Positions 124-20,588 of a stretch of DNA of 20,588 bases are shown here, in pieces. The notes below the pieces were generated by a model that saw only the letters and a list, made by a program, of their open reading frames with translations, had not been told where the DNA came from and did no database searches. Position 1 is the first letter of the stretch. Each line of letters starts with the position of its first letter. The position numbers and the translations under genes are program-made. Source of the DNA: a virus (taxonomy: Duplodnaviria > Heunggongvirae > Uroviricota > Caudoviricetes); IMG/VR virus record IMGVR_UViG_2531839584_000015; one strand, given 5' to 3'.

Positions 124-203
124 AACCGTAGCACGTCGTATGCAAGAACGTGCCACGGCTGGCTGATAAGCTTGTAAAAATATTGAACAGGGAGTGGAGC
201 ATT

Positions 204-851: not shown

Positions 852-909
852 TATAAGTACTCGCTAATATTGAACGATATATATATCAAATTATTATAAA
901 ACTCGTCAG

Positions 910-3045: not shown

Positions 3046-3242
3046 TACCGGCTGCGACACTTTTGAATAAAAGCGTCGACATTGCGGCGCTCATAACGAA
3101 CTACTTTTGCACTGAAACGAATTGGTGCCAGGATAGCCCGATGACGATGCTTAATATTCCACTCACATAGCGTTTTCTGTGTAATACCTAACTTTTGGCA
3201 TACTTCATCCGGGGTGAGTAAATCGTCGGGTTTCTCGCTCAT
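2994..3242 (-). CDS. AlpA-family HTH protein (excisionase / prophage transcriptional regulator)
   Basis: 82-aa ORF with LLTPDEVCQKLGITQKTLCEW HTH typical of AlpA/Xis-like proteins. Its 3' end overlaps the convergent integrase 3' end by about 52 bp. Confidence 0.65.
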   Translation of the reverse strand: MSEKPDDLLTPDEVCQKLGITQKTLCEWNIKHRHRAILAPIRFSAKVVRYERRNVDAFIQKCRSRYYPRRRSNATCASMLRS

Positions 3243-4636: not shown

Positions 4637-4703
4637 GGTATTGTATCTCCATGAATGAACTTATGTAGTAATAGCTTAATTATTTATTTCGAAAGGAACA
4701 GTT

Positions 4704-5582
4704 ATGACCTCAGCTTATACAGATGTCCAGCAAGAAGAAAATATTACTGATAAATTAGTTGTTAAATATGATGGTCCCGCACTAGCAGATCATAAAATAG
4801 ATTTGGATGTTTTAACTGAGTCATTGAATGGACTAAACAACTTGCTTAAAGAAGTTAATTTGGTTGTCAATGGCACTAGTGAGTGTATTAATGTTGAGGT
4901 TGAGCCTTTTAAGGAAGGCTCATTTGAGTATTTGATTGATGTTATTCAAAATCCACTTGACCATTTGAATATATTAAGCATTATTGGGCTTGGAGGTACA
5001 ACTGCACTCGCAGCAGGAAATACTCTCATTGACTTAATTCGTCAGATCAATGGTAGGCAAATAAAACGGTTGACTTTAACAGCGGAAGGAGACTGTAAAA
5101 TAGTTATGGATGATGGTGAGGAAATTATAGCCCCGTCATATTTCCGGCCTTTACTTGCCTCACCAAGCATACGCAAATCCTTATCGAAGTTAATTCATAA
5201 TCCTTTGCAAAAGGAAGGATACGAATCGCTTAAAATTTCAACTCAACAGGGGGTTGAGCTGATTAAGGTGCACGAAGATAATATTGAACCGTTCAGATAT
5301 AGGCGCGTTCCTGTAGTGCAGTCCTTGTCTGAAAGGGTGATTGAAGAGGCTCTAATCACATTTTTGACTATTCATAAGGATAAAAACACAGGCTGGCGAG
5401 TCAACTATGGCGATGACACAATCAGCGTGTCTATAGAAGATACTGAGTTCTTACAACGTGTTAGTACGGGAAGAGAACCTGGTGTTTTTAGTGATGCTTA
5501 CTGCGTTGATTTGCTCGTCCGTGAGAACTTGAATTCGCTGGACAAAACGTACATAGTTGTTAAAGTACACGGCATCTTATAG
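4704..5582 (+). CDS. Hypothetical soluble protein, 292 aa; first gene of AT-rich three-gene cassette
   Basis: Intact ORF with AAAGGAA RBS 7 nt upstream of ATG. A hand count of a 60-nt sample gave about 32% G+C, against about 58% in the neighbouring helicase gene. Opposite strand to the surrounding replication operon. No family recognised. Confidence 0.6.
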   Translation: MTSAYTDVQQEENITDKLVVKYDGPALADHKIDLDVLTESLNGLNNLLKEVNLVVNGTSECINVEVEPFKEGSFEYLIDVIQNPLDHLNILSIIGLGGTTALAAGNTLIDLIRQINGRQIKRLTLTAEGDCKIVMDDGEEIIAPSYFRPLLASPSIRKSLSKLIHNPLQKEGYESLKISTQQGVELIKVHEDNIEPFRYRRVPVVQSLSERVIEEALITFLTIHKDKNTGWRVNYGDDTISVSIEDTEFLQRVSTGREPGVFSDAYCVDLLVRENLNSLDKTYIVVKVHGIL

Positions 5583-5605
5583 TAGATTCACATGGGGAGG
5601 GGGCT

Positions 5606-5854
5606 ATGATTGCTTTTGCTTTTTGGCTGGCTTTTTTTAGCCTGCTTCCCGTACTATATTGGGTTCTTAAGATGGGGTTTGACCGGTTACGCTTTGCGCT
5701 TATGCCTAAACATCATCTTGTTCTTGAATGTGTTGACTCAGAAGGAGTTGTCCGTCGCGATGTCGTTGATGTCTCTTCTGATGATGAATTTTACAAAATT
5801 GCAATGAATGCCATTCGTGCTGGAAGATCAGTCAAAGGAGGGACGTTTGAGTAG
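5606..5854 (+). CDS. Small membrane protein, 82 aa (one N-terminal transmembrane helix plus acidic C-terminal domain)
   Basis: ORF preceded by GGGGAGGGGG RBS-like sequence. N-terminus AFAFWLAFFSLLPVLYWVL is strongly hydrophobic. Sits 24 bp downstream of the 292-aa gene. Confidence 0.5.
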   Translation: MIAFAFWLAFFSLLPVLYWVLKMGFDRLRFALMPKHHLVLECVDSEGVVRRDVVDVSSDDEFYKIAMNAIRAGRSVKGGTFE

Positions 5855-6377
5855 CGCTTCTAAACTTGATAGCTACGAAAAAGTCCCTCTGATTTCTAAT
5901 GTTGCTGCTGGTGGCATCACTGGTTTTTTAACATTACTGGTGTCCTCGTGGGACGGTTGTTTTCCGTATATTGGTTCTGATTTAAATACAATAAAGCCAT
6001 TTCTTTTATTAATGCTTCCCAGTTGCGCTATGTTTCTGGCGCATTGGATAAAGTCGATTGGGTTTAAATGGTCCTTAGGTAGCGTTAATCGACAGTTATT
6101 AAGCATTAATAAGAAGAAAGAAAAAGAACTTCGCCGTGATATTGAAAAGTACAAAAATGTTATTTCTAATGAAAAGATAGAGGACTTTAAAAGTCAACTT
6201 GAACAAGTATTACAAGATCGTCATGATATTATTTCTAATAATTACGCACAGAAACTAAGAGAAAGAAATTATACGCAAGAAAAATATCATGAGCATAAAC
6301 AAACCGCTGCAAATGATAATATTGAGCTGCAAAGCATACTGGAGAATCAGAAGTTCAATCAAAAAGGCATTGACTAA
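5808..6377 (+). CDS. Membrane protein with C-terminal coiled-coil, 176-189 aa; start uncertain (ATG 5808, or in-frame TTG 5847 preceded by AAGGAGG at 5835..5841)
   Basis: ORF overlaps the end of the 82-aa gene in another frame. Two hydrophobic segments (GGITGFLTLLVSS, PFLLLMLPSCAMFLAHWI), then a K/E-rich heptad region. Stop is only 4 bp from the stop of the convergent VRR-NUC gene. Confidence 0.5.
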   Translation: MPFVLEDQSKEGRLSSASKLDSYEKVPLISNVAAGGITGFLTLLVSSWDGCFPYIGSDLNTIKPFLLLMLPSCAMFLAHWIKSIGFKWSLGSVNRQLLSINKKKEKELRRDIEKYKNVISNEKIEDFKSQLEQVLQDRHDIISNNYAQKLRERNYTQEKYHEHKQTAANDNIELQSILENQKFNQKGID

Positions 6378-6381
6378 ATTT

Positions 6382-6651
6382 TTATAATATCCTCTCTAGG
6401 TTCTTGCTATCCAGCACCACTACGGTAAAGCCCAGTTTTCGCAGACGTTCATGTTCGCGCAATTGGTCAGGCCGTGGTGGCTTGCCGGGAGATTTACATT
6501 CAACGAAAACGATACGACCACCTGGTAGCAGGACAATGCGATCCGGTACCGAGCGGTGACCGGGAGATACAAACTTAAAGGCCACTCCGCCAGCTTTTTT
6601 CACTTCAGCGACGAGGTGCTTTTCGATAAGGCTTTCACGTTCATAGGCCAT
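6382..6651 (-). CDS. VRR-NUC domain nuclease
   Basis: Sequence MAYERESLIEKHLVAEVKKAGG...VECKSPGKPPRPDQ resembles the VRR-NUC (PD-(D/E)XK-like) family seen in phage replication modules. Start taken as ATG at 6651, 5 nt after the upstream gene's stop; the track ORF extends to 6678. Confidence 0.6.
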   Translation of the reverse strand: MAYERESLIEKHLVAEVKKAGGVAFKFVSPGHRSVPDRIVLLPGGRIVFVECKSPGKPPRPDQLREHERLRKLGFTVVVLDSKNLERIL

Positions 6652-6940
6652 CTGAATCCCACTCTTCAAAAAGCACATTCAATTCCAGTTTCTCTGCCAA
6701 CGCGTTTTCTGCACGTGCGCCAGCAGAGTACTCCCACTCTTTGAGCATATAAATCGTATCGGCACAGCGAAGCATTGCGAGGCAGATGTCCATATACTGA
6801 GCCTGTGTCAAACCATTGGGTAAAGTTGCGGGGTTAAGCACAACATATCCCTTGTCCGTTAGCCTCTTTGCTGCGGAATGAAAAGCCGGGCGGTTAAATT
6901 GCTCGTAACCGCTCATCGGCCCGGCAACGTAAACGATCAT
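6641..6940 (-). CDS. DUF4406-like protein (nucleoside 2-deoxyribosyltransferase-like fold)
   Basis: N-terminus MIVYVAGPMSG is characteristic of DUF4406 phage proteins as I recall them. ATGA start/stop overlap with the upstream 71-aa gene. Confidence 0.5.
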   Translation of the reverse strand: MIVYVAGPMSGYEQFNRPAFHSAAKRLTDKGYVVLNPATLPNGLTQAQYMDICLAMLRCADTIYMLKEWEYSAGARAENALAEKLELNVLFEEWDSDGL

Positions 6941-7152
6941 TCTTCGACCGCCTTACGCTTTTCACGCATATTCTGCATCAGGCAAAAATCAGATCTGCGT
7001 TCACTCCATTCCTGATTCAGTTCGTGATGTGATTCGCGGTTGGCTTTTGCCCAGACCTTCGCTGCCCGGTCATATTCGCCGGATTGTTCAAGTCGCAAAG
7101 CCTCCCTTGCAGCCCTGTAATAAAGTGGATTGTCCCGGTATTTAAATGACAT
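6937..7152 (-). CDS. Small phage protein, 71 aa, function unknown
   Basis: ORF packed between the polymerase and DUF4406 genes with a start/stop overlap. No confident family assignment. Confidence 0.45.
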   Translation of the reverse strand: MSFKYRDNPLYYRAAREALRLEQSGEYDRAAKVWAKANRESHHELNQEWSERRSDFCLMQNMREKRKAVEE

Positions 7153-7157
7153 AGGAG

Positions 7158-9221
7158 TTAATCCTTACGGTAGTGGTACGCCTCAAAACCGCCAGCGTTC
7201 AGTGGGATATCTGGCGCCCATTCGGGGTTAGTGGAGAGAAGCGCGGAAAGCGCTTTATCGTTGAAATCTTCTGTGTCAGGTGATTCGGTGATCACCTCGT
7301 CGTGTACCGTCAGCACAATGCTGTAACCGGCATCTTCGATAAGCGGCATGTTTCCGGCCAGAACGTCGCGGGCGGCCGCCTGGGTGACGTTCTCCACCAG
7401 CTTTCCGCCGTAGGTTTTGAGTCGTTGCCATTTACGCGAATAAGAGTTAACACCCATGTAGGTGATATTCCCTTGTTCGATAACCGGAGACGGGTAGCAT
7501 ACAGCGCGTCCGGATGGTAGCTGTATGCGCAGCCACGCGCCATCGCGGCGGATTTTAAGATAACCGCAATACAATGTTTTTTGCGGTGTGGCGATTGCTG
7601 TGCGGACGGTGCACTCCAGTTCGTACCAGAAATCACAGGTCGCGGGATGCGCCCGGCGCCAGAGACGTTTAAGTGAGTCGCAGGCGATAAATACCCGTTC
7701 AGAAAGCCCGTAGGTCGATTTACGTTTAACCGATTCGTCGTACCAGCTTTTCGCCTCGCGGATAACATCGCGGGGAATGTTTGGCAGTGCGGCGTTCGCC
7801 AGCCCGTCGAGATCGAGACCGTAAACCAGAGCAAAAGTGATGAAAGCCGATACACCTCCTCCATAACCCAGACCGAGTTCCATGACTTTACCGATCTGAC
7901 GCATGTGTTTATCAACATCATCTGGTGCAATATCGAAAGCTTTTGCATACGCCAGTTTATATAAGTCCGGACCCGTTCCGGCGTCGTACTCTCTGAATGC
8001 ATTCAGTTTCCATTCTTCTCCCGCCAGCCATGCCAGCATACGGCCTTCAATGTTCGACAAGTCACTTACCACCAGCTTTTTGCCTGTTGGCGCGATAATG
8101 CAGCCACGTAACGCTGAACTGGTTAGTTCCATGATATTGTCAAACAGCAGGTCTGCACATCCGGCTTTCAGTGCTTCGATGCCTTCGTCTATTTGTTCCT
8201 GTTTTAGTGAAGGGCGGGGAAGGTTCTGGGGCTGGAATAGCCGTCCGGCCCAACGACCGGTACGTGACGCCCCGCAGAACTGTAGCGTACCGCGTAAGCG
8301 CCCGTCGTGGCTTACGCCTTTCATCAGTGCCTTGTATTTACTGGTGCTGGTAGTACTGGCCTGCAGGCGGATAGCCAGCAGTTCTTTCACGGCAGATGGT
8401 AAATCGGGGTCGGCAATACGACGTTCCAGAGTACTGCGTTGCATGTCTGGTAGCTCCACACCGTAGGATTCAACAATGTGCTTAATCAACGCGTCTCGTT
8501 GTGTGGCTGCCTGCACTTCGCCATCAGTCATTTCCTGTGTACGCTTTGCCAGGCGCTTTTGTTCCTGGTCTACCGCGTCGATCGCAGCGCGTGCGAGTTC
8601 CACGTCCATGCAGACGCCCCGGTCATTGATCTGCTGATCACGATGCCAGAGCGCCAGTTCTGTCCCCTGATAATTCCACTTCGGCAGACGTTTATAGACT
8701 TCGCGCATTGCCTCGATATCCAGTCCGGCGTAAGCAACAAAGCGCCGCCATTCTTCCGGGTGGGTTTTGCTGGTGGCCCGGCGCAGTTTGCTGTTTTTCG
8801 GGCGTGGCTTACAGAACAGCTGGATCAGCGCTTTACCTTCTTTGTCCTTCGCTTTGTCTTGCGGGACGCCTAGTACTTCGCAGAGTTCCCCCAGAGACCC
8901 CGGGAGACCGTGCGCCAGCGCCTGCACCATCGTGTCGCGCCAACGTTCGACTGGCGGTGCCAGTCGCGGCATTGCATAACGCAGGACGGTGCGGTCGAAG
9001 TGAGAGTTATGAAAATAAAGCAGGGTTTCAGGGGCTGCGATTGCTTCGTATAAGCCGTGTGGAATACCACCACCGGCAGTGATATCCCATACGTTTACTG
9101 GCCCGTCGTTGATAGCCCATGCGAACAGCATCACTTCAACGCCTTCGGCATACGCATGGGTACCGTTCGTAATAGGGATTTCGCAATAGGTTTCCAGGTC
9201 GCCCCATAGTATATTGGACAT
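7158..9221 (-). CDS. Family A DNA polymerase with N-terminal 3'-5' exonuclease domain
   Basis: Exo I-like DLET near the N-terminus. Motif A DLSNIEGR, motif [13 protein letters not shown], motif C LTVHDE. Length 687 aa. Confidence 0.85.
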
Positions 9222-9267
9222 GTGTTTACCTTGGTTTTTATTCTATTAACTGATTAAAAGATTAATT

Positions 9268-9897
9268 ATGCATATGATCCAATACTTGATTGACCATACA
9301 GAGCATCTGGAGAAAATAGCTGGATATATTTTTTCATGTTTGATTGTTATGGGAGTCTGGATAAGAAAGATCATTTTTAATTATAAGTATAAAGAGCCTA
9401 AATATGTCAAGAAGTTAATTTTATATTTAGTTAAGTATGAACGTTATCTGGATAAGGAGGATAAGAGTGCCATAGAAAAAAGAATAAATGATAAAATTAT
9501 TCGTGATGCGCTGAAATTGCAATCTTCTTATAACCGAAGTGATGTTATTTACATTTGCAATAGATTAGAAAAAAGACAGTATATAAATCAGGTGATTAAG
9601 CTTCAGAATTATATAGAGAAAGATAACGGAGTGTTTTTCATCAATGTTAATTTTTCAGGTTTTTTATTTATTATTAGTCGTCTGTTTTCCTTTCTGTGTT
9701 TTGTGCTGTTTATCCTTTTTTCTATTATCTGCATTATTTCCATAGGGCAAAATGAAGGCCTTTTAAATTATCTTGTGTATATGGTTATGACAATAGTTTT
9801 AGAGACTGTTGGTTTTTGGATGTATGATACTTTCCCGTCTAAGAAGAAGATCTGTGAACTAAATAAAGAATTGAGGAAGATTAAGATTCCTGAGTGA
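9268..9897 (+). CDS. Hypothetical multi-pass membrane protein, 209 aa; AT-rich single-gene insertion
   Basis: Strongly hydrophobic segments (IFSCLIVMGVWI; FSGFLFIISRLFSFLCFVLFILFSIICIISIG; LVYMVMTIVLETVGFW). Lys/Ile/Tyr-rich, AT-rich codons. Opposite strand to the flanking replication genes. Confidence 0.55.
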   Translation: MHMIQYLIDHTEHLEKIAGYIFSCLIVMGVWIRKIIFNYKYKEPKYVKKLILYLVKYERYLDKEDKSAIEKRINDKIIRDALKLQSSYNRSDVIYICNRLEKRQYINQVIKLQNYIEKDNGVFFINVNFSGFLFIISRLFSFLCFVLFILFSIICIISIGQNEGLLNYLVYMVMTIVLETVGFWMYDTFPSKKKICELNKELRKIKIPE

Positions 9898-9915
9898 TTA
9901 TGCGCCTAATCAGCA

Positions 9916-9934
9916 GCCCGGTATTTAACCGGGC
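9916..9934. terminator. Hairpin between convergent genes (possible bidirectional terminator)
   Basis: GCCCGGT-ATTTA-ACCGGGC, a 7-bp stem with 5-nt loop in the 52-bp gap between 9268..9897 (+) and 9950..10498 (-). Flanking U-tracts are weak. Confidence 0.3.
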
Positions 9935-9949
9935 GTCTATGAAGTAGGG

Positions 9950-10498
9950 TTAAATCAGTGCTTCAGCATCAGCACCTTCGCTGATATCGTCGAAATCGTC
10001 AGCGCTTGCCACTCCGCCGACAGCGAATGCATCGCCGTCTCGCAGGAACTGGACTCCGCCGAGTGAGGCATTAATGCGTTTACCGAAATTATTGTCCTGT
10101 GCCCAGATATCGATAACGGCGTTTACATAGCACCCTGCATAGGGACGTCCATCAGCCTGAATAAGTGGCGAACGATCGCGATCAAGAACAGCTGGGCGCG
10201 CTTTGTTAGCAGCATTCAGGAAGAAATTGCCGGGGAAGCCTTCATACTCTGCTTTTTCATCACCATCATGCAGGCACAGATTGAGTTTTTTCTCCAGTTG
10301 GTTATAAATGGGCTCCCACTTCTCTCCCCATTTTTCCTTCGCTACCTGCTTCATAGCTTTACGGATTTCTTCCAGTTGTGGGTGTTTGGGTGACATTAAA
10401 AATACTGCGGAGAAACGTGGATCGCCTTCGCCGTTTACAGTTTTAGCTTCAAACAGAGACGGGAAGGCCAGACGAACATTGTTCAGCTTCAGTTTCAT
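9950..10498 (-). CDS. DUF2815-family phage protein (SSB-like)
   Basis: N-terminus MKLKLNNVRLAFPSLFE matches the conserved start of DUF2815 proteins, which usually sit next to DUF2800 in phage replication modules. Acidic C-terminal tail. Confidence 0.65.
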   Translation of the reverse strand: MKLKLNNVRLAFPSLFEAKTVNGEGDPRFSAVFLMSPKHPQLEEIRKAMKQVAKEKWGEKWEPIYNQLEKKLNLCLHDGDEKAEYEGFPGNFFLNAANKARPAVLDRDRSPLIQADGRPYAGCYVNAVIDIWAQDNNFGKRINASLGGVQFLRDGDAFAVGGVASADDFDDISEGADAEALI

Positions 10499-10513
10499 GG
10501 GTATTTCCTTAAA

Positions 10514-11815
10514 TCAGATGAGGTCTGCGGTTAGCGTATCGTCGGATACGTCGTCGAAATCATTTACAGGGTTGATATTGAGTGCGGGGCGTGGGTCTGA
10601 CTCGGGAACGATGGTGGGTTTACCATCAGCTCGTGTTATCAGTGCCTCGACTTTTGACCAACGGCGCGGACTGGCCTTTTTGATAAGTTTTTCGGCTTTT
10701 GTGGGGCTAATAAGTTTAAAGTCGAATACTTCTTCAGTTTTGTACCTGAACTGGTCCTTCAGAAGTGCGCGAGCTGCCTCTTCATCACTCCAGGCCCGGT
10801 TACCTTGTTTTCCTGTTACCAGTTTAAACCCCGGTACCGGATGTCCGGCATTGAGTTCATTGTGAACCCGGTCCCGTACTGCCTTTAGCCAGGACTCAAT
10901 AAAGTCGGCCTGGCTATAGATCTCCGCAAGCTGCTCAATGGTTAACAGAGGTACACGTGCGCTGGCATTGGTGATTATTTCGCTGACAGGCTTTGTCAGA
11001 TCTTCAAAGTCGCTGGCCGCTGTTTGTAAATGCTGCATTTTCTGGGCAGTGCAAATAGCTTTTGCTTTACAGAAGCGGCACTGTTTTTCTCCAGGTATGA
11101 AGTTTTCCAGCGGTAGTGTCTCAATGCCTTCGCATTCAGCAATATTGAGAACAAGGATCGCACTGGTTGCGGCCTCCTGTGCTCGTTTACCGAAAGACTG
11201 AAGTTCCTGCACGGTTAACGACCATTCTGAAACGTGGTTGAGCCTTGGCTGGTGAATAAATAATCTTACAGTCTCAAAGTCATACAGCATGCTGAATTGT
11301 TCGAGCGCACCCAGAGCATACAGTTGTAGTTGCTCATTTTGTTCTGCATCAATGCGGACGCCTTTGCCATATTTCAGGTCGTGGATTTGTAATTCGTTAC
11401 CAGCGATGATTATGCCGTCGGCAGTTCCGAAAGATTCTTCCACCCCCGTTATATGTGAGAAATCAACACGTTGTTCAACCAATAGTTCATTATTCTGTGC
11501 AAGAGTCCAGACCGTATCAACATACCGGCCAACGGCTTCGACCATTTCATCATCCACCTGTGGGCCAGATGTATCATCAGGATTTTCGCGAAGGGGGTAT
11601 GAGCCGAGAAACATAGAAACATTGCATCCGGCGTAGTGTTCCGGGTGGCTTTGCCTGTTTCGTAGAACTTTTTCAGCAAGCGCGTGCGCTGCAGTGCCCT
11701 CGATTGCAAAAGTTGTTTCTTTATCCGGTTGTGTGGCCTCCAGCGCCAGACTTCCTGGGCAGCGCATCCATCGATGCGCTGATGATGGAGAAAGTTGTGC
11801 ATGAACGTCTGGCAT
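10514..11815 (-). CDS. DUF2800-family PD-(D/E)XK nuclease (Cas4-like exonuclease)
   Basis: N-terminal [15 protein letters not shown] motif and a C-terminal cysteine cluster ([12 protein letters not shown]) are typical of DUF2800/Cas4-like nucleases. Confidence 0.65.
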
Positions 11816-11817
11816 GA

Positions 11818-12720
11818 TTAACCCTCCAGTGCTTTTTCAGCCAGGGTGATTACTTCAGCGAGATTTTCATCCGTTACTTCACCAAGTTTCCTGGCTCCCT
11901 GTTTTTCCAGAATTGCAATAGCTTCTGCCCGGTAACCCCCTTTTGCTAACTGGAGGATCAACCCTTCAGCTTGTTTGCGTAGTGCCGCGAAATCAATTGT
12001 ATGGTCATCTTTGGCGTCATTATTCTGGCTGGAATTTGCTGCGTCTCTGCGTGCAAATTCTTCCTGCAGCTGAAGGTACTCAACACGGTTGATCTCGATA
12101 TGGCCTTTTTTAAGCATCTCGTTCAACTTGCGTAAGGTGTGGAGTTCACTGGCTGCTGTGCCGGATACATTTTTGACGTAAAACGGCCCCGTGCGTTCTC
12201 CATCTTTGTTACTGGCCTTTTTCGGCTTAACTTCATCACGCCCATCTGCAGGTGCATCAAGTAGTTGCTCGGCAAAAGCACGTCGCTCGCCGATGGTTGG
12301 CAGGTCGTCCCAGAACTTAAGAATGTTACGGGACAGGTCCAGAAGAGCGGGTTTATGCAGTGCCCTGGCTCGTTTGACGCCCTGCAATGCGCTGTCGAGA
12401 GCATCAATCTGAACTACTCGTTTATCGCCTTCAGCATCACGGTAGGCAACAGCACGTTGCAGCATGTCTTCTGTGATAGGGGTGGCTACCGGGTAGAAAC
12501 CAGCCAGTGCGATAACGTCGCTGAACTCCAGATCATCCAGTGTCATTGCCGCTGACATATTTTCAGTTTCAGTTGCTGTATCCCGACATTCCTGCACTCG
12601 TGAAATCGTGTCAGGATGCATAACAATACCTGATGCCATCGTGCGGATAAGACGTTCAAGCAGCGCATTATGTTGTGCCAGAAGTTGATTATTAAGTTCG
12701 AGACTGGTTTCTAAACTCAT
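11818..12720 (-). CDS. Hypothetical phage protein, 300 aa, acidic
   Basis: ORF in track, tightly packed in the operon: 2-bp gap to DUF2800 and ATGA overlap with the upstream small ORF. No family recognised. Confidence 0.5.
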
Positions 12721-12866
12721 ACTGTGGTCCTCGCTACAAGGAGAATGAAAGTGATGATCAGACCGAGCGCAGTGGCAACGGCCAGACCGGTCATCAAATC
12801 GAAGTTTTTACGGCGATAACGGAGAACATCGCGCCCCGTCAGTCGATAGAAGTGTTCAGGTTTCAT
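12717..12866 (-). CDS. Small hydrophobic protein, 49 aa (not in ORF track)
   Basis: Hand translation of the minus strand gives [54 protein letters not shown] lies upstream of the ATG at 12866, and the stop overlaps the ATG of the 300-aa gene (ATGA). Confidence 0.4.
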   Translation of the reverse strand: MKPEHFYRLTGRDVLRYRRKNFDLMTGLAVATALGLIITFILLVARTTV

Positions 12867-13499: not shown

Positions 13500-14123
13500 C
13501 TAACGTTTACGGCGGTAAATACGGTGTTCGATCATTACACCTATGATCTGTAAGTTCATATCTGCACTACGAAAAATAGGGTAATCAGGATTTAGGGGGA
13601 TTAATTCAAAGTCGTCGATGCCGATTCCTAATGGACGGTATTTTTTAAATGTAGCTTCGTGACCGTCGTTTTTGGCGACAACAAACTCCCCTGGTGCAGG
13701 ACATAGATCAGGATCGATGATAACAATGTCTCCTTCTTTAAACTCTGGTTGCATGCTGTCGCCATCAATACGTAATGCGAAGCATGTTTCTGGAATGTCA
13801 GAGTCTGCCAAAATATATTCAAATTCCCCTGTCAGATCTGTTATGTCTCTTGCTTCTGTAAGCTCTCCTGCCTGAACGTAACTTAATATAGGTATGCGTC
13901 TGGTACTTATCTCCGCGAGAGGCATAATATTTTTACCGTTCAGTAGCCAGTCTGGGCTACATTTCAAGGCCTTAGCCAGATCCAGAAGATTGCGCGGCTT
14001 TCTGGTTCGTCCACTTTCGATGGATTCTATGGATTGTTGGCTAACCCCTGCAGAATTCGCTACTTCCACTTGAGTCATTCCTAATTCCAAACGACGTGCT
14101 TTAAAACGGGCTGCGAGAGACAT
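13500..14123 (-). CDS. cI-like phage repressor (XRE-type HTH + LexA-like S24 peptidase domain)
   Basis: HTH LGMTQVEVANSAGVSQQSIESIE; Ala-Gly cleavage site (VQAGEL); Ser/Lys dyad context (GDSMQPEF, VVAKNDG). Start taken at ATG 14123 (MSLAARF...) with AAGGA RBS; the track ORF extends 17 codons further upstream. Confidence 0.8.
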   Translation of the reverse strand: MSLAARFKARRLELGMTQVEVANSAGVSQQSIESIESGRTRKPRNLLDLAKALKCSPDWLLNGKNIMPLAEISTRRIPILSYVQAGELTEARDITDLTGEFEYILADSDIPETCFALRIDGDSMQPEFKEGDIVIIDPDLCPAPGEFVVAKNDGHEATFKKYRPLGIGIDDFELIPLNPDYPIFRSADMNLQIIGVMIEHRIYRRKR

Positions 14124-14243: not shown

Positions 14244-14456
14244 ATGACCTTAGCGACCCGAGTAAAAGAACGACGTAAAGAACTCAAAATGACGCAAGTT
14301 ACGTTGGCTGAGCTCACAGGAGTGAGCCAGCAGGCAATAAACAGAATTGAAAGTGGTGTTATTGCTCGGCCACGTTATCTTCTTGAAATGTCTATAGCAT
14401 TGGATTGCGACCCTAATTGGCTGTTGTATGGCTCACAAAACGATAAAAAGGCTTAA
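14244..14456 (+). CDS. Cro-like XRE-family HTH regulator
   Basis: LKMTQVTLAELTGVSQQAINRIESG HTH. ATG at 14244 has GAGGTGA 5 nt upstream. Divergent from the cI-like gene; stop lies 3 bp before the primase start. Confidence 0.75.
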   Translation: MTLATRVKERRKELKMTQVTLAELTGVSQQAINRIESGVIARPRYLLEMSIALDCDPNWLLYGSQNDKKA

Positions 14457-14459
14457 CCC

Positions 14460-16646
14460 ATGTCCGATAGCAAACCATGGGGAGCTACGCCTGATGAGTG
14501 GTTTCATTTCGACCTGGTATTGGGGAGAACTGAGCATCTTCTCCCAGTTGTATGTAACCCCGGTGCGACCATATCCCCTGATAGTAAACTGAAAGCGCTG
14601 GGCAAGACGCCAAGTCGCTATAACCGGGACCGCCAGGTCACCGGTATTGCTCAATGGACCGGGTATGTTGTTACTGAGCATGATTTTGCCCGCTGGTCGA
14701 ATGAACCGGATTATGGCATCTGCGTGCGTACAGGCCATGGCTGGCTGGCGCTGGACTGCGATAGCGAAGATGAAGACATTCAGGCAGATATTCGCAAAAC
14801 GCTTGTGCAACTTCTGGGGGAGTTGCCGCCGCGACGCTGGCGAGCAAACAGTAATAAGTGTCTGTATCTGCTGGCCGTTGATGGTGATTTCCGTAAGCGT
14901 ATCCATCGCCTGGCGGGGGATATGGGCATTATCGAGTTGCTGGCGAACGGGCAGCAGTTCGTTGCCTGTGGTACGCACAGCAGCGGCGCGCGTATTGAAT
15001 GGGACGGTGGTTTGCCGGATGAACCTCCGGCTATTACTGGTGAGCAGCTTGAAACGCTGTGGCAGCGCCTGGCTGAACAACTCCCTGTGTCGGTAACCAC
15101 CGAAGCGGGCAACACGAAGATGCGCGACCGATCAGCATTCACGCCCGGCGCGACGGATGATACAGCTGAATATCTTGATGCCAATGGCTGGACGCTGCTG
15201 GATGGCGCAAATGGTGAACGATATATCCGCTGTCCGTTTGAAGACGGCCACAGTAGCGGGGGCGATCCAACAAGCACAGCTTATTTTCCTGCGGGAACCG
15301 CGGGCTTTGAGCAGGGGCATTTTAAATGCCTGCATGCCAGTTGTGCGCATCGTGATGACGGAGATTTCCTTAATGCCATCGGGATCCGCAACGACGATTT
15401 CGAAGATCTGACCAGCACCGAAGTGGCGGAACCTTTACCGCTGCCTGCTTTCGAGCGTGATAAATGGGGGCGTATCGAGGCAACCATCAGCAACGCAGCC
15501 AAAGCAGTAGTACGCCCTGATTTTGTGGACATCGATATTCGCTTTGACCAGTTCCGCGACGAAATCATGTTTGCCCCTGCAGGATCCGGACAATGGCGAG
15601 CATTCACCGATGCGGATTATGCGCGCCTGCGCATCACGATGGAAAAGCGGGGATTTAAACCTGTTGGTCGTGAACTTATTCGCGATGTGGTGTTACTTGC
15701 AGCCGATGAACAACCATTCGATTCAGCGATCACCTGGCTGAACGGGCTGGAGTGGGATGGCGTGCCGCGCATCGAATGTTTCTACCATACGCACTTCGGT
15801 ACAGCCAACACGCCTTATACCCGTGCGGTGTCTATGTACATGTGGACCGCGTTGGCGGGGCGAGTACTGGAGCCAGGCATCAAAGCGGATATGGTGCCGA
15901 TCCTCGTTGGTCCGCAGGGCTGCGGTAAGTCTTCCGGAGTGGAGGCACTGAGCCCTGATCCTGCGTTTTTTACTGAAATCTCTTTTGCCGAAAAAGACGA
16001 TGATCTCGCTCGAAAAATGCGTGGTCGGCTGGTGGCAGAGATTGGTGAACTGCGCGGACTTAATACCAAAGAGCTGGAGTCAATCAAAGCGTTTGTGACA
16101 CGTACTCACGAAAACTGGATCCCGAAATACCGGGAGTTCGCCACCCAGTTTCCTCGTCGCCTGGTGTTCGTTGGTACCACCAATGAGGACGAATTCCTTG
16201 CGGACAAGACTGGTAACCGTCGCTGGCTCCCCGTGGAAGTGTCGAAAGTCGACGTGAAAGCGATAAAAAGAGATCTCCTTTTACTTTGGGCTGAGGCTCG
16301 TGAGGTGTTTCAGCGTCTGGGGGGTATCCAGTTCCGTGAGGCTGAACAACTGGCAGCGAGTGTCCATGAACAGTACACCATCAAGGATGCTTGGCTTGAA
16401 ACGGTAGAGAAATGGCTCGACACGCCAGACCTGATGACTAATGAACTTCCGCGAAATTGCGAATTTTTACGCGCAAGTGATGTTTTGCGTGATGCGATTG
16501 GGCTAAATCCTGACCGCATCGGAAAACGCGAAGAAATGCGAATTAGTAATGTTTTGCAAAATTGCGGGTATAAGCGTGCCCAAAGGCGAATTGGGGGGAA
16601 AAAATGCAAGGTTTGGGAACCGCTGGAACCACGCGGAACCACCTAG
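14460..16646 (+). CDS. Replication initiator: primase-polymerase (Prim-Pol) N-terminal domain + zinc-binding region + VirE/P4-type P-loop NTPase
   Basis: 728 aa. Walker A GPQGCGKSS in the C-terminal half. Cys/His cluster CPFEDGHSSGG...HFKCLHASCAH. N-terminal acidic catalytic-like segment LALDCDSEDED. Operonic with cro. Confidence 0.7.
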   Translation: MSDSKPWGATPDEWFHFDLVLGRTEHLLPVVCNPGATISPDSKLKALGKTPSRYNRDRQVTGIAQWTGYVVTEHDFARWSNEPDYGICVRTGHGWLALDCDSEDEDIQADIRKTLVQLLGELPPRRWRANSNKCLYLLAVDGDFRKRIHRLAGDMGIIELLANGQQFVACGTHSSGARIEWDGGLPDEPPAITGEQLETLWQRLAEQLPVSVTTEAGNTKMRDRSAFTPGATDDTAEYLDANGWTLLDGANGERYIRCPFEDGHSSGGDPTSTAYFPAGTAGFEQGHFKCLHASCAHRDDGDFLNAIGIRNDDFEDLTSTEVAEPLPLPAFERDKWGRIEATISNAAKAVVRPDFVDIDIRFDQFRDEIMFAPAGSGQWRAFTDADYARLRITMEKRGFKPVGRELIRDVVLLAADEQPFDSAITWLNGLEWDGVPRIECFYHTHFGTANTPYTRAVSMYMWTALAGRVLEPGIKADMVPILVGPQGCGKSSGVEALSPDPAFFTEISFAEKDDDLARKMRGRLVAEIGELRGLNTKELESIKAFVTRTHENWIPKYREFATQFPRRLVFVGTTNEDEFLADKTGNRRWLPVEVSKVDVKAIKRDLLLLWAEAREVFQRLGGIQFREAEQLAASVHEQYTIKDAWLETVEKWLDTPDLMTNELPRNCEFLRASDVLRDAIGLNPDRIGKREEMRISNVLQNCGYKRAQRRIGGKKCKVWEPLEPRGTT

Positions 16647-16805
16647 AAGAGAAGGTGGTTCCACCTTGCAGACCTTGTGGCAAGCGGGGCGGAACTACTG
16701 GAACCACTGGAACCGCCTTTCTACTAGAAACCCCATATATATATATAAGTCGATTGAGGGAAAGGTTAGGAAAAGGTGGTTCCAGGTGGGGGCAGGTGGT
16801 TCCAC
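16616..16805. repeat. Putative origin of replication: iteron arrays flanking an AT-rich (AT)7 tract
   Basis: GGAACC(A/G)C-type repeats at 16616, 16625, 16635, 16691 (GGAACT), 16700 and 16709, spaced about 9-10 bp. Inverted copies GGTGGTTCC at 16654, 16775 and 16795. AT-rich CCCCATATATATATATAAG at 16731..16749. Overlaps the 3' end of the primase gene. Confidence 0.6.
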
Positions 16806-16806
16806 T

Positions 16807-16849
16807 CCGCATTAGCAACTTTTTGCATGTTGATACATGCAATATGCGG
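16807..16849. promoter_or_regulatory. Nested palindrome upstream of the Q-like gene (candidate operator)
   Basis: TTGCATGT-TGAT-ACATGCAA (16823..16842) nested inside CCGCAT...ATGCGG (16807..16849). Confidence 0.35.
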
Positions 16850-16934
16850 ATCGGAACTGCGTTATCCACACCCACGGATATACAGACGTAGTTCTCAGAA
16901 AATTTTTTCGTAGCAAAACGTAGAGGTCAGAGCT

Positions 16935-17357
16935 ATGCGTAATATTCAACAGGTTTTAGAGCGCTGGGGTGGCTGGGCAGCGAGTGAAGGTGGTAGCGTC
17001 TACTTTCCTCCTGTTGCAGCCGGGTTTAAGAATCTGCTACCCGCGACGCAGTCTGGAAGGCTGAAATGCAGTGACAATGACGGTCTTATCATCAACTCCG
17101 CTATGAGCTGCTTGAAGAAAAAAGATCCGTATCTGTGCACGCTCCTTGAGTGGCATTACGTCCAGGCCATGCCCGTGAGGGCGATGGGTGAGAAGCTCGG
17201 CGTATCTCACACCCACGTTCTGAAGAGGCTTCAGGCGGCAGAGGGATTTATTGACGGTTGCTTAGCCATGCTGGATGTGGTGCTCGAAATGGATCAGTCG
17301 GTTCAGTCAAAGCCTCAGGCTATCAGGACTTTGCGTAGGAGCTGCTCGGCGGCATAA
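16935..17357 (+). CDS. Phage antitermination protein Q (QuuD-like, Phage_antitermQ family)
   Basis: N-terminus MRNIQQVLERWGGWAA...AAGFK and C-terminal KRLQAAEGFIDGCLAMLDVVLEMD closely resemble E. coli prophage QuuD-type Q proteins as I recall them. Confidence 0.8.
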   Translation: MRNIQQVLERWGGWAASEGGSVYFPPVAAGFKNLLPATQSGRLKCSDNDGLIINSAMSCLKKKDPYLCTLLEWHYVQAMPVRAMGEKLGVSHTHVLKRLQAAEGFIDGCLAMLDVVLEMDQSVQSKPQAIRTLRRSCSAA

Positions 17358-17730: not shown

Positions 17731-17797
17731 AAAATAGTTGTGGAATTCCAAAAAGCCGATTAGCCTGATATCTGTTGAAAACAGTTCATCACGAAGA

Positions 17798-17974: not shown

Positions 17975-18794
17975 GGCACTGTTGCAAAGTTAGCGATGAG
18001 GCAGCCTTTTGTCTTATTCAAAGGCCTTACATTTCAAAAACTCTGCTTACCAGGCGCATTTCGCCCAGGGGATCACCATAATAAAATGCTGAGGCCTGGC
18101 CTTTGCGTAGTGCACGCATCACCTCAATACCTTTGATGGTGGCGTAAGCCGTCTTCATGGATTTAAATCCCAGCGTGGCGCCGATTATCCGTTTCAGTTT
18201 GCCATGATCGCATTCAATCACGTTGTTCCGGTACTTAATCTGTCGGTGTTCAACGTCAGACGGGCACCGGCCTTCGCGTTTGAGCAGAGCAAGCGCGCGA
18301 CCATAGGCGGGCGCTTTATCCGTGTTGATGAATCGCGGGATCTGCCACTTCTTCACGTTGTTGAGGATTTTACCCAGAAACCGGTATGCAGCTTTGCTGT
18401 TACGACGGGAGGAGAGATAAAAATCGACAGTGCGGCCCCGGCTGTCGACGGCCCGGTACAGATACGCCCAGCGGCCATTGACCTTCACGTAGGTTTCATC
18501 CATGTGCCACGGGCAAAGATCGGAAGGGTTACGCCAGTACCAGCGCAGCCGTTTTTCCATTTCAGGCGCATAACGCTGAACCCAGCGGTAAATCGTGGAG
18601 TGATCGACATTCACTCCGCGTTCAGCCAGCATCTCCTGCAGCTCACGGTAACTGATGCCGTATTTGCAGTACCAGCGTACGGCCCACAGAATGATGTCAC
18701 GCTGAAAATGCCGGCCTTTGAATGGGTTCATGTGCAGCTCCATCAGCAAAAGGGGATGATAAGTTTATCACCACCGACTATTTGCAACAGTGCC
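17975..18794 (-). mobile_element. IS26 (IS6 family), complete 820-bp copy
   Basis: 14-bp terminal inverted repeats GGCACTGTTGCAAA at 17975..17988 and the reverse complement at 18781..18794. Internal transposase matches Tnp26. Flanking 8-mers differ (CGCAAATC vs ACGTAATG), so there is no target-site duplication. Confidence 0.95.
18027..18731 (-). CDS. tnp26: IS26 transposase Tnp26 (DDE), 234 aa
   Basis: Protein MNPFKGRHFQRDIILWAVRWYCKYGISYRELQEMLAERGVNVDHSTIYRWVQRYAPEMEK... is the canonical IS26 transposase. The track ORF starts 6 codons upstream (MLMELH). Confidence 0.95.
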   Translation of the reverse strand: MNPFKGRHFQRDIILWAVRWYCKYGISYRELQEMLAERGVNVDHSTIYRWVQRYAPEMEKRLRWYWRNPSDLCPWHMDETYVKVNGRWAYLYRAVDSRGRTVDFYLSSRRNSKAAYRFLGKILNNVKKWQIPRFINTDKAPAYGRALALLKREGRCPSDVEHRQIKYRNNVIECDHGKLKRIIGATLGFKSMKTAYATIKGIEVMRALRKGQASAFYYGDPLGEMRLVSRVFEM

Positions 18795-19296
18795 ACGTAA
18801 TGCGCTGAACTGTGCAGGATGCGAGCTGATTTTTGAAGACAAGATAAGCGGCACAAAGTCCGAAAGGCCGGGACTGAAAAAACTGCTTAGGACATTATCG
18901 GCAGGTGACACTCTGGTTGTCTGGAAGCTGGACCGACTGGGGCGCAGTATGCGGCATCTTGTCGTGCTGGTGGAGGGGTTGCGCGAACGAGGCATTAACT
19001 TTCGTAGTCTGACGGATTCAATTGATACCAGCACACCGATGGGGCGTTTTTTCTTTCATGTGATGGGTGCCCTGGCTGAAATGGAACGAGAACTGATTGT
19101 TGAACGAACAAAAGCTGGACTGGAAGCTGCTCGCGCACAGGGACGAATTGGTGGACGTCGTCCCAAACTTACACCAGAACAATGGGCGCAGGCCGGGCGA
19201 CTAATTGCATCAGGAGTTCCTCGCCAGAAGGTGGCGATCATTTATGATGTTGGCGTATCGACTTTGTATAAGAAGTTTCCGGTCGGAGATAAATGA
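18795..19296 (+). pseudogene. Pin/Gin/Hin-family serine DNA invertase, 5'-truncated by IS26 (catalytic serine region missing)
   Basis: Translation RNALNCAGCELIFEDKISGTKSERPGLKKLL...GRFFFHVMGALAEMERELIVERTKAGL... aligns from about residue 19 of Pin/Gin. Homology starts exactly at the IS26 boundary. The N-terminal MLIGYVRVST segment with the active-site Ser is absent. Confidence 0.8.
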
Positions 19297-19376
19297 AACC
19301 GTAGCACGTCGTATGCAAGAACGTGCCACGGCTGGCTGATAAGCTTGTAAAAATATTGAACAGGGAGTGGAGCATT

Positions 19377-20024
19377 CTATGAAGCTAATTTGTTTAATTT
19401 CATTTGTAGTGACTTTACTTCTTGGTCGATAATGTCGAATCCCTTATTGACAGCATCTCTTAGCTCTGCATCAATATTTTTTATCCCTTGAGCATAATCT
19501 ACCATTACATTTATTTTTGCATCATGTAATCTTTTATACATGGTTTTATCTTTGTTATTGTCTGCCATGCCAATAAGGATTTTTTCATAATCCTCAATGA
19601 GTTTGTTGTTTCCTTTAAATGATTGTATTAATGAGCGTGAATATGTGTATATGTTAATTATTGAGTCTCTAGCAGAATCATTTAGTTTTGCAATGACATT
19701 CGCATTTTGCTCATAGAATGTGAAATTATCATCCCCTACAGGGAATGTGAGAATCAACATTTGTCCCGGTTTTATATTATCAATGTGTGTTTTCATCCTT
19801 TTATTATATAAATTGATTAGGGTGAAAACTTCTCCCTTAACTCCTTTTAATACTGAAAGTTGTAATTCAAGGGATTCTCTTTCTGTCTCTACTTTAGACA
19901 GCTTAGCTTGTTGGGTGACTCCTTTTAGGGTAAACCATCCGCCAATAAGAGTACCAACTAGAGCTGTGAGGGAGGAGGATAACCATCCAGGTATGCTATT
20001 TAAAAGATTACTAAATTCACTCAT
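19377..20024 (-). CDS. Hypothetical membrane-anchored protein, 215 aa (second copy of 204..851)
   Basis: Protein identical to 204..851 in the ORF track; part of the terminal duplication. Confidence 0.55.
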   Translation of the reverse strand: MSEFSNLLNSIPGWLSSSLTALVGTLIGGWFTLKGVTQQAKLSKVETERESLELQLSVLKGVKGEVFTLINLYNKRMKTHIDNIKPGQMLILTFPVGDDNFTFYEQNANVIAKLNDSARDSIINIYTYSRSLIQSFKGNNKLIEDYEKILIGMADNNKDKTMYKRLHDAKINVMVDYAQGIKNIDAELRDAVNKGFDIIDQEVKSLQMKLNKLAS

Positions 20025-20082
20025 TATAAGTACTCGCTAATATTGAACGATATATATATCAAATTATTATAAAACTCGTCAG

Positions 20083-20517
20083 CTACTGGAGAAGGCTACC
20101 TGAACTTCGAACTATTCCTGCATCCATATAGTTGATGGTCTTCTGGAGCTCTTCGATTAGGGCAACAGCTTTTGCTCGAGAAATGCATATTAGTTGATCC
20201 GGAAATTCTTGTAAGGGCCAGTTTGGTATACAGGCCATGTTATCAGTGAAGGATGCAGACAAGTAAACTTCATTGGTAACCAGAGAATAGCTTACCTCAA
20301 AATTGGTGAGTTCCGGCAAACTGCTAACGTTTGACTCTTTTCTGCGCATAATATTATCCATGACTGTAATTATGTACAGGTGATGGTCTTCAATTTCGAA
20401 GAGGGAGTCAAGGGGGAGTCTCAAATGAACCGTTATAGAAAAGGGGGGGATCTTTGTGTTGCTGAACTTATGCAAAATTTTTTTGCACCATAAATCCAAC
20501 AACACATTCAATAACAC
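20083..20517 (-). CDS. Hypothetical protein, up to 144 aa (second copy of 910..1344)
   Basis: Protein identical to 910..1344; same start-site uncertainty. Confidence 0.4.
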   Translation of the reverse strand: MLLNVLLDLWCKKILHKFSNTKIPPFSITVHLRLPLDSLFEIEDHHLYIITVMDNIMRRKESNVSSLPELTNFEVSYSLVTNEVYLSASFTDNMACIPNWPLQEFPDQLICISRAKAVALIEELQKTINYMDAGIVRSSGSLLQ

Positions 20518-20588
20518 ATTGCTGTATCACTATGAAAATAAATGTGTTTTTATTTGATTTCACACATATCACAATTGATGCATTTTTT

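What the first reader, a model, noticed from the sequence alone, without database searches (positions are those of the whole stretch)
19174..20588. Exact 1,415-bp duplication of the window start at the window end
Positions 1..1415 and 19174..20588 are identical where I checked (both ends, and the two encoded proteins). Either the source molecule is circular with about 19,173 bp of unique sequence and the window wraps around, or this is a genuine tandem direct repeat or an assembly overlap. The interpretation changes the biology: an episomal or excised circular element versus an integrated one.
Basis: seen in the sequence. Interest (0 to 1): 0.5.

Follow-up and report, generated by a model that had tools for sequence, protein, structure and literature searches.

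The report
Wrap-around contig of a truncated prophage
The repeated ends show that the assembler walked once around a 19,173-bp loop, the joined-ends form of an IS26-truncated E. coli prophage that the same assembly also records integrated; this is an ordinary signature with a few odd details.

Summary
Confirmed: window 1-1415 and 19174-20588 are identical at every base, giving a period of 19,173 bp.

The window is a whole draft contig, APXC01000024.1, from ETEC strain 180200 (Illumina 100-bp reads, Celera Assembler).

The unit is the yfhL-integrating prophage of ETEC-2264/E2980. IS26 replaces 23,368 bp (holin through tail fibres, plus the first 18 codons of pinE). The arithmetic is 41,721 - 23,368 + 820 = 19,173.

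The first repeat copy runs through the 38-bp att core (1386-1423) into int. That is the prophage right arm, the core, then the left-end sequence, so it is an exact attP junction. The repeat is therefore neither a random overlap nor an IS26 circle.

Another contig of the same assembly (APXC01000219.1) starts at the same base and runs through the same 1,423 bp into yfhH, which is attR. Integrated and joined-ends forms were both assembled.

Best reading: a defective prophage that still excises into a circle. Tandem duplication and an assembler misjoin are not excluded, because only the reads (SRR446715) can separate them.

Extra: the only two differences from relatives are Int R307P and loss of the excisionase-like gene's stop codon.

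The parts
1..1415 (.). Copy 1 of the terminal repeat (unit R). It holds the last 40 codons of the pin remnant, the 215-aa and 88-aa ORFs, the phage-side att arm and the first 30 nt of the att core. This copy continues into int.
   Evidence: It is identical to 19174-20588 and 100% identical to the right end of the ETEC-2264 prophage.
19174..20588 (.). Copy 2 of unit R. It follows the pin remnant and stops 30 nt into the att core at the contig end.
   Evidence: The sibling contig AQDN01000036.1 ends at the same base. Contig APXC01000219.1 of the same assembly starts at the same base as R.
1386..1423 (.). 38-bp att core, TTCACACATATCACAATTGATGCATTTTTTAGTGATTA. It is the reverse complement of yfhL codons 4-16.
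   Evidence: This is the overlap between the match to attR (window 1-1423) and the match to attL (window 1386 onward) in STEC383, E2980 and ETEC-2264.
1282..1668 (.). attP region with candidate arm-type integrase sites (AACACA/AACACAT) at 1328 and 1340 in the P arm and at 1556, 1569 and 1662 in the P' arm. Inverted copies lie at 1282 and 1370.
   Evidence: Five of the 7 AACACA copies in the 19,173-bp unit lie in these 335 bp. The P-arm pair is conserved in pE76_003.
1648..3045 (+). Tyrosine integrase, 465 aa, carrying R307P (G>C at 2567).
   Evidence: Pfam PF00589 scores 28.5 bits against a cut-off of 27.1. Column 307 is R or K in 63 of 84 homologues and never P. This exact protein is on record only on this contig.
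2994..3242 (-). Excisionase-like HTH gene. T>G at 3042 turns its TAA stop into TAC, extending the protein from 66 to 82 aa.
   Evidence: Pfam HTH_17 scores 24.9 bits, below the cut-off of 27. PHROG matches are DNA-binding and excisionase families.
3239..12866 (-). Leftward early operon. It holds an SNF2/DEAD-box helicase (3239-4636), VRR-NUC, DUF4406 and ANR genes, a family A DNA polymerase (7158-9221), a DUF2815/Enc34 ssDNA-binding protein (9950-10498) and a DUF2800/PD-(D/E)XK nuclease (10514-11815). Accessory genes on the + strand lie at 4704-6377 and 9268-9897.
   Evidence: Called genes and Pfam families are.
13500..14123 (-). CI-like repressor (HTH plus S24 peptidase, LexA family).
   Evidence: See (Pfam HTH_3, Peptidase_S24).
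14244..17357 (+). Rightward operon: Cro-like HTH (14244-14456), VapE-type primase/replication protein (14460-16646) and antiterminator Q (16935-17357).
17975..18794 (-). IS26, 820 bp, with transposase at 18027-18731 on the - strand. The flanking 8-mers differ (CGCAAATC and ACGTAATG), so there is no target-site duplication. It replaces 23,368 bp of the intact prophage.
   Evidence: It is 100% identical to IS26 in public records.
18795..19296 (+). Remnant of the pinE invertase. The first 18 codons, including the catalytic Ser of VRVST, are missing. It is read as a 168-aa fusion starting at a GTG inside IS26 (18790).
   Evidence: This fusion protein is on record in only three assemblies: strains 180200, 2735000 and 2851500.
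19377..20349 (-). Low-GC two-gene cassette between pin and att: a 215-aa ORF (19377-20024) with a hydrophobic N-terminal stretch, and an 88-aa ORF (20083-20349). The first copy lies at 204-851 and 910-1176.
   Evidence: There are no Pfam or PADLOC hits, and the 88-aa ORF matches phrog_17793 of unknown function. The cassette is absent from the related pE76_003. GC is 0.36.

Best explanation
The terminal duplication is how the assembler wrote a cyclic path. One 1,415-bp assembly unit (R) was placed at both ends of contig APXC01000024.1 because the path returned to where it began.

The cycle is a 19,173-bp element. It is the yfhL-integrating temperate phage of the CS7 ETEC lineage, with IS26 replacing everything from the holin gene to the first 18 codons of pinE. 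It keeps int, an excisionase-like gene, the CI/Cro switch, antiterminator Q and a complete replication module. It has lost all lysis, packaging, head and tail genes.

The cycle closes at an exact attP site. Integrase-mediated attL x attR recombination makes this junction when the prophage excises. The same assembly also holds the integrated attR junction. The DNA that was sequenced therefore most likely contained chromosomes with the defective prophage in place plus excised circles of it. Such circles can form, and perhaps replicate, but cannot lyse the cell or be packaged.

Shown: the exact repeat, the unit arithmetic, the attP anatomy, the IS26 deletion, and attR in the same assembly.

Inferred: that reads really span attP, that the molecules are circles rather than a tandem array, and that the two int/xis mutations matter.
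For: - The repeat is exact and the period is 19,173.
- The window is the whole contig of ETEC 180200, from Illumina 100-bp reads assembled with the Celera Assembler.
- Window 1386-17974 matches ETEC-2264 and E2980 at 99.988%, and 18795-20588 plus 1-1423 match at 100%. The intact prophage of 41,721 bp, minus 23,368 bp, plus the 820-bp IS26, equals 19,173.
- The junction is the attR arm, the 38-bp core, then the attL arm.
- Candidate arm-type sites cluster on both arms, with 5 of 7 AACACA copies in 335 bp.
- Contig APXC01000219.1 of the same assembly begins at the same base and runs through R, the core and then yfhH.
- Sibling isolates carry the same IS26 deletion integrated. attR lies on a 168-kb contig, and attL with yfhL lies on an IMG/VR provirus.
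- Sibling contig AQDN01000036.1 stops at the same base inside the core, which marks a systematic fork there.
- The 38-bp core is shorter than the Celera Assembler's usual 40-bp minimum overlap (my recollection of its default). A purely overlap-driven false join is therefore unlikely.
- A related phage exists in attP configuration as a circular 76.9-kb record with IS26 in its tail-fibre region, pE76_003.
Against: - No read-level data were available, so the attP junction rests on a single draft contig.
- No attB (empty site) contig could be looked for, so the reciprocal product of excision is unproven.
- None of 5,426 complete E. coli genomes contains this attP junction, and no phage record, IMG/VR contig, JGI metagenome contig or GTDB representative genome does either. 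There is no independent sighting.
- If Int R307P disables the integrase, excision would be impaired. That would favour a tandem array made by homologous exchange.
- The left boundary of R (19174) has no explanation in this model.
Confidence: 0.55

Rival explanations
1. The truncated prophage is tandemly duplicated in the chromosome, as yfhL-attL-unit-attP-unit-attR-yfhH. This could arise by unequal sister-chromatid exchange at the 38-bp cores or by integration of a second copy. The assembler collapsed the two copies into a loop.
For: This gives the same attP junction and the same assembly graph as circles plus an integrated copy. attR is present in the same assembly. It does not need an active integrase, which suits the R307P change. 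The element stands alone as a contig without chromosomal flanks, as expected if its depth is above single copy.
Against: No tandem copy of this prophage family appears in 5,426 complete E. coli genomes, because no place covers the attP query. A 19-kb direct repeat is unstable in recA+ cells. Sibling isolate 2851500 shows the same fork at the core, which would need the same rare duplication twice.
Confidence: 0.25
2. Assembly artefact. Only the integrated single copy exists, and the assembler joined the right-end unit R to int through the shared 38-bp core, then reported R again at the true right end.
For: The contig's right end lies exactly 30 nt into the core. A k=31 graph unit would end there, where the yfhL-side and phage-side paths merge, and a k=31 graph cannot resolve a 38-bp repeat on its own. 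R was placed three times in this assembly, which is how repeat units are handled. The two unique SNPs could also be consensus errors.
Against: 100-bp reads span a 38-bp core easily. In sibling 2735000 the same pipeline resolved attR correctly into a 168-kb contig. Without attP reads or read pairs, nothing links R to int. The core overlap (30-38 nt) is below the usual 40-nt minimum overlap of the Celera Assembler, which I recall from its defaults and did not test.
Confidence: 0.12
3. The circle is a stably maintained plasmid, a natural lambda-dv-like replicon, and is no longer an excision intermediate. The int/xis mutations bias it toward, or lock it in, the excised state.
For: The element keeps the immunity region and a full replication module and has lost every lysis and structural gene. 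Its only two differences from three relatives both hit the recombination module: Int R307P and the xis-like stop-loss. pE76_003 shows a related phage recorded as a circular plasmid with an IS26-associated insertion.
Against: attR in the same assembly shows an integrated copy is still there. No partition or plasmid-maintenance genes were seen. The replication genes sit in operons that the CI-like repressor would be expected to shut off. Copy number and stability cannot be tested here.
Confidence: 0.08

Closest known systems
Direct terminal repeat of a circular template in a draft assembly (untrimmed 'circular contig')
   Same: The two contig ends are identical, the unit has no internal copy, and the period equals the length of a biologically sensible unit.
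   Different: The overlap is exactly one assembly unit, bounded on the right by the att core. The same unit also heads a chromosomal contig, so the graph is a loop attached to the chromosome and not a free ring.
Excised circular form (attP) of a lambda-type temperate phage
   Same: The junction equals the attR arm, the core and the attL arm. A tyrosine integrase and an excisionase-like gene lie next to att. There is a CI/Cro/Q regulatory layout, and repeated candidate arm sites lie on both sides of the core.
   Different: The element lacks all lysis, packaging and virion genes, so the circle is a dead end for phage production. The integrase is a divergent 465-aa type with no solved relative detectable by sequence.
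Lambda dv plasmids (deletion derivatives of lambda that replicate as plasmids; from my own knowledge of the literature)
   Same: It is a deletion derivative that retains the immunity and replication region and has lost the late genes.
   Different: Here the deletion was made by IS26, int/xis/att are retained, an integrated copy coexists, and autonomous stable maintenance is not shown.
IS26 translocatable unit
   Same: It is a circle containing exactly one IS26 and adjacent DNA. It could in principle be captured next to another IS26.
   Different: A translocatable unit closes at IS26 and carries DNA that is contiguous in the donor. This circle closes at attP, which joins two ends that lie 19 kb apart in the chromosome, so IS26 did not make the circle.
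pE76_003 of Enterobacter sp. E76 (CP042502.1)
   Same: It is a related phage, 70-88% identical across int to Q. It is recorded as a circular molecule in attP configuration with pin next to int, and it has IS26 in the tail-fibre region.
   Different: It is 76.9 kb, keeps the structural genes, and carries metabolic cargo. It lacks the 215-aa/88-aa cassette. Its core sequence differs.

Membership tests
Wrap-around (circular-path) contig | The two contig termini are identical and the identity reaches both ends. | tested here: met
   1,415 of 1,415 bases are identical at offset 19,173 only.
Wrap-around (circular-path) contig | Reads or read pairs close the circle. | not testable with these tools
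   Reads SRR446715 were identified but cannot be accessed here.
Excised temperate-phage circle (attP) | The junction equals the right-end arm, the core and the left-end arm of the integrated prophage. | tested here: met
   Window 1-1423 equals attR and 1386 onward equals attL in three chromosomes, with a 38-bp overlap.
Excised temperate-phage circle (attP) | An integrase lies adjacent to att. | tested here: met
   PF00589 scores 28.5 bits against a cut-off of 27.1, PHROG integrase E = 5e-26, and the gene lies 225 bp from the core.
Excised temperate-phage circle (attP) | A recombination directionality factor (excisionase) is present. | tested here: inconclusive
   HTH_17 scores 24.9 bits, below the cut-off of 27. 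PHROG excisionase families match at E = 5e-7 and 1e-4, but the best PHROG is 'DNA binding protein'.
Excised temperate-phage circle (attP) | The reciprocal empty site (attB) occurs in the same sample. | not testable with these tools
   Other contigs of APXC01 cannot be listed. Only contig 219 (attR) was reachable, through an exact-protein look-up.
Tandem prophage array | attL and attR are both present together with the attP-type internal junction. | tested here: inconclusive
   attP (window) and attR are in the assembly. attL of strain 180200 was not found, although the siblings have it.
Tandem prophage array | Element depth is about twice chromosomal depth and there is no attB. | not testable with these tools
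   This needs the reads.
IS26 translocatable unit | The circle closes at IS26 and carries DNA contiguous with IS26 in the donor. | tested here: not met
   The circle contains the attP junction, which joins non-adjacent chromosomal ends. IS26 sits 1.8 kb away, with both flanks collinear with the prophage deletion endpoints.
Virion terminal redundancy (phage DTR) | A packaging machinery generates redundant ends. | tested here: not met
   The terminase, portal, head and tail genes all lie in the 23,368 bp that IS26 replaced.
Lambda-dv-like phage-derived plasmid | It retains immunity and replication genes and lacks late genes. | tested here: met
   CI-like and Cro-like genes, VapE, PolA, helicase, ssDNA-binding protein and nuclease are present. 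The region from the holin gene to the tail fibres is absent.
Lambda-dv-like phage-derived plasmid | It is maintained stably and autonomously without an integrated copy. | tested here: not met
   The integrated attR junction is present in the same assembly. Stability itself is not testable here.

The most novel reading that the evidence does not exclude
In strain 180200 the IS26-truncated prophage has become a self-replicating, non-lytic 19.2-kb episome, a natural lambda-dv-like plasmid. Its two private mutations, Int R307P next to the presumed catalytic lysine hairpin and a stop-loss that lengthens the excisionase-like protein by 16 residues, shift the integration/excision balance toward the free circle. 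This would be a caught-in-the-act step from prophage to plasmid, and the circle's IS26 would make it capturable by other IS26-bearing replicons.
Probability: 0.1. Interest if true: 0.6.

Novelty: new member of a known kind. Interest (0 to 1): 0.3.

Why it matters
For annotation, the contig should be read as one 19,173-bp unit and not as 20,588 bp with duplicated genes. It should be linked to the yfhL/yfhH locus on contig 219 and not called a plasmid.

For biology, it is a clean natural example of an IS26 deletion that removes every late gene of a temperate phage. The recombination, immunity and replication modules stay intact, and the junction shows that the remnant's ends still get joined.

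If reads confirm abundant circles, the element would be a tractable case for asking how defective prophages persist or turn into plasmids. It would also test whether the two int/xis mutations change directionality.

As it stands it is an ordinary assembly signature on an ordinary kind of element.

Tried and rejected
1. IS26 translocatable unit as the origin of the circle. Rejected because the circle closes at attP and not at IS26.

2. Virion terminal redundancy. Rejected because all packaging genes are deleted.

3. A second pin paralogue causing the left boundary of the repeat at 19174. The closest complete genome (ETEC-2264) has only one place matching 19140-19240, even at E <= 10. The unit has no internal repeat of 20 nt or more. 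The boundary remains unexplained. A polymorphic base at 19173 in the read set would also produce it.

4. Looking for the attP junction elsewhere. There were zero hits in complete E. coli genomes, phage records, IMG/VR, JGI metagenomes (exact and degenerate patterns) and GTDB representatives. One search used a mistyped pattern with one T missing and is void.

5. Solved-structure relatives of the integrase, to place R307. None were found by sequence, so its position relative to the catalytic lysine rests only on the family alignment.

6. Function of the two ORFs in the repeat. There were no Pfam or PADLOC hits. The 88-aa ORF matches phrog_17793 of unknown function, and the 215-aa ORF had no PHROG hit.

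7. Finding Logan assemblies of SRR446715 through exact-protein look-ups. Only NCBI contigs were returned.

8. Searching papers for the accession. It is absent from main texts but present in Table S1 of PMC5469772.

Full report
OBSERVATION. Window 1-1415 and 19174-20588 are identical at all 1,415 positions. Offset 19,173 gives 100% identity, and neighbouring offsets give 25-30%. One 19,173-bp unit has no other repeat of 20 nt or more on either strand.

SOURCE. An exact-protein look-up shows that the window is the complete contig APXC01000024.1 (20,588 bp) of assembly GCA_000356305.2. Table S1 of Sahl et al. 2017 (PMC5469772) assigns APXC00000000 to ETEC isolate 180200: CS7, Bangladesh, symptomatic, reads SRR446715. 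The methods state Illumina HiSeq 100-bp reads assembled with the Celera Assembler. The repeat is therefore a property of a short-read draft contig and not of a finished replicon.

WHAT THE UNIT IS. Window 1386-17974 is 99.988% identical (2 mismatches in 16,589) to the left part of a prophage in ETEC-2264 (NZ_CP023349.1) and in E2980 (NZ_LR882978.1). Window 18795-20588, and also 1-1423, are 100% identical to the right end of the same prophage.
- That prophage lies between yfhL and yfhH. yfhL is a known phage integration site (PMC3603311, PMC12029490).
- The intact prophage is 41,721 bp. It runs int, an excisionase-like HTH gene, helicase, accessory genes, PolA, an ssDNA-binding protein, a PD-(D/E)XK nuclease, a CI-like repressor, a Cro-like gene, VapE primase and Q. 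These are followed by holin, endolysin, terminase, head, tail, baseplate, tail fibres, pinE, two small ORFs and attR.
- In the window, an 820-bp IS26 (17975-18794) replaces 23,368 bp, from just upstream of the holin gene to codon 18 of pinE. The flanking 8-mers differ (CGCAAATC and ACGTAATG), as expected for an IS26-mediated deletion and not a simple insertion.
- The pin remnant lacks the catalytic serine.
- The arithmetic 41,721 - 23,368 + 820 = 19,173 equals the repeat period exactly.

THE JUNCTION. The match to the prophage right end (window 1-1423) and the match to its left end (1386 onward) overlap by 38 bp: TTCACACATATCACAATTGATGCATTTTTTAGTGATTA.
- This is the att core. It is the reverse complement of yfhL codons 4-16. 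The phage supplies a replacement start (MSL instead of MAL), so yfhL is rebuilt at attL (and direct reading).
- The first repeat copy therefore contains right arm, core and left arm, which is an exact attP site.
- The motif AACACA(T) occurs 7 times in the unit. Five of these lie within 335 bp around the core, as pairs on each arm, which is the layout of arm-type integrase sites. The P-arm pair is conserved in a distant relative.
- A junction this exact excludes a chance overlap, an arbitrary tandem duplication and an IS26 translocatable unit.

THE SAME ASSEMBLY ALSO HOLDS THE INTEGRATED FORM. I looked up the 40-aa partial product at the contig start. This found contig APXC01000219.1 (109,739 bp) of the same assembly. 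It begins at exactly the same base, is 100% identical through window 1-1423, and then continues into the chromosomal side (ACAACGCCATAAGG..., yfhH, yfhB). That is attR.
- The 1,415-bp unit was therefore placed three times: before int, after the pin remnant, and before yfhH.
- The contig's right end is 30 nt into the 38-nt core.
- The 2,568-bp contig AQDN01000036.1 of sibling isolate 2851500 ends at the very same base. This is a systematic fork, and the position is what a k=31 graph unit would give. The k value is my inference, since the paper names only the Celera Assembler.
- In sibling 2735000 the same region was resolved straight into a 168-kb chromosomal contig.
- An IMG/VR provirus from an isolate genome shows yfhL-attL-int...Q-IS26.
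- The IS26-deleted prophage is thus a lineage marker of some CS7 ETEC isolates and is normally integrated.

INTERPRETATION. The repeat is a wrap-around of a cyclic path, and I hold this with high confidence. Whether the cycle is real depends on reads spanning attP.
- 100-bp reads cross a 38-bp core easily.
- The core is shorter than the usual 40-bp overlap minimum.
- The same pipeline resolved attR correctly in a sibling.
For these reasons I think attP-spanning reads exist (about 0.85). Given attP, the choices are excised circles coexisting with the integrated copy, or a tandem array. I favour circles for two reasons. The element keeps int, the excisionase-like gene and both att arms. No tandem copy is seen in 5,426 complete genomes. 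The sequence cannot decide between them, however. Because the pipeline may collapse read depth, even low-level spontaneous excision might suffice, so a high-copy episome is not required.

PRIVATE MUTATIONS. The window differs from ETEC-2264, E2980 and the integrated sibling copy at only two bases, and both lie in the recombination module.
- G2567C gives Int R307P. In 84 homologues this column is R (58) or K (5) and never P. It lies between the invariant F306 and P309, six residues after the invariant K301.
- T3042G is silent in int. It converts the TAA stop of the overlapping excisionase-like gene to TAC, extending the protein from 66 to 82 aa.
- Both exact proteins are on record only on this contig.
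- The int/xis module is 8.7% of the phage DNA, so two random changes would both fall there with a probability of about 0.8%. This is a post hoc figure.
- The changes may be consensus errors, neutral changes, or a shift in the excision/integration balance. I could not test which.

PRECEDENT. pE76_003 of Enterobacter sp. E76 (76.9 kb, circular) is a related phage in attP configuration, with pin next to int. It has IS26 and non-phage cargo in its tail-fibre region.

COMPARISON AND VERDICT. This is a known kind of thing: an untrimmed circular-path contig representing the joined-ends form of a defective prophage. The particular element, an IS26-truncated yfhL phage with attP and private int/xis changes, does not appear to have been described. 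The source paper's main text never uses the word prophage. Interest is modest at 0.3.

The most novel reading that remains open is a lambda-dv-like episome favoured by the two mutations, with probability about 0.1. Mapping SRR446715 to the four att junctions would settle the matter.

Noticed in passing
window 2567 and 3042: These are the only two differences from three near-identical relatives, and both hit the recombination module. One gives Int R307P, at a column that is never P in 84 homologues. The other is a stop-loss that lengthens the overlapping excisionase-like protein from 66 to 82 aa. Both exact proteins are on record only on this contig.
   Followed up: partly
window 1 / 19174; loci L025, L027, L028, L029: Contigs from four unrelated assemblies also end at exactly this base or one base earlier. 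They are an NCBI isolate, a JGI metagenome and two ENA MEGAHIT metagenomes. Truncated 'HTH-only' pin remnants in other yfhL prophages begin within 3-6 nt of it (STEC383 at 19168; others at 19171). ETEC-2264 has no second copy of this stretch. The reason for this common breakpoint at the catalytic-domain/HTH boundary of pin is unexplained.
   Followed up: partly
window 1386-1440 (att core and P' arm): The phage integrates into codons 4-16 of yfhL and supplies a new start (MSL... instead of MAL...) and upstream region. yfhL is therefore rebuilt rather than disrupted at attL. An earlier survey listed yfhL among genes disrupted by phage integration.
   Followed up: partly
window 4704-5582 (+): This 292-aa accessory gene in the variable region between the helicase and VRR-NUC matches the PADLOC candidate defence family PDC-S42 (E = 6e-40). 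At the same position, relatives carry TIR-domain or DUF6338 genes, which suggests a defence-gene hotspot.
   Followed up: no
window 124-1280 and 19297-20453: A low-GC (0.36) two-gene cassette lies between pin and the att arm: a 215-aa ORF with a hydrophobic N-terminal stretch, and an 88-aa ORF. It has no family assignment and is absent from the related pE76_003, where pin abuts the arm. The 215-aa protein is very widespread at the yfhH side of E. coli prophages (index lists it in 5,846 blocks).
   Followed up: partly
L013 (CP042502.1, pE76_003) 12,000-36,000: A 76.9-kb circular 'plasmid' of Enterobacter sp. E76 is largely a related phage genome in attP configuration. It is possibly a phage maintained as an episome.
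   Followed up: partly
L011 start (window 18021), L010 start (18555), L005 end (18605): Sibling contigs stop at different points inside IS26 and not at its ends. This suggests several slightly different IS26 copies in these genomes. The window's contig crosses IS26 completely.
   Followed up: no
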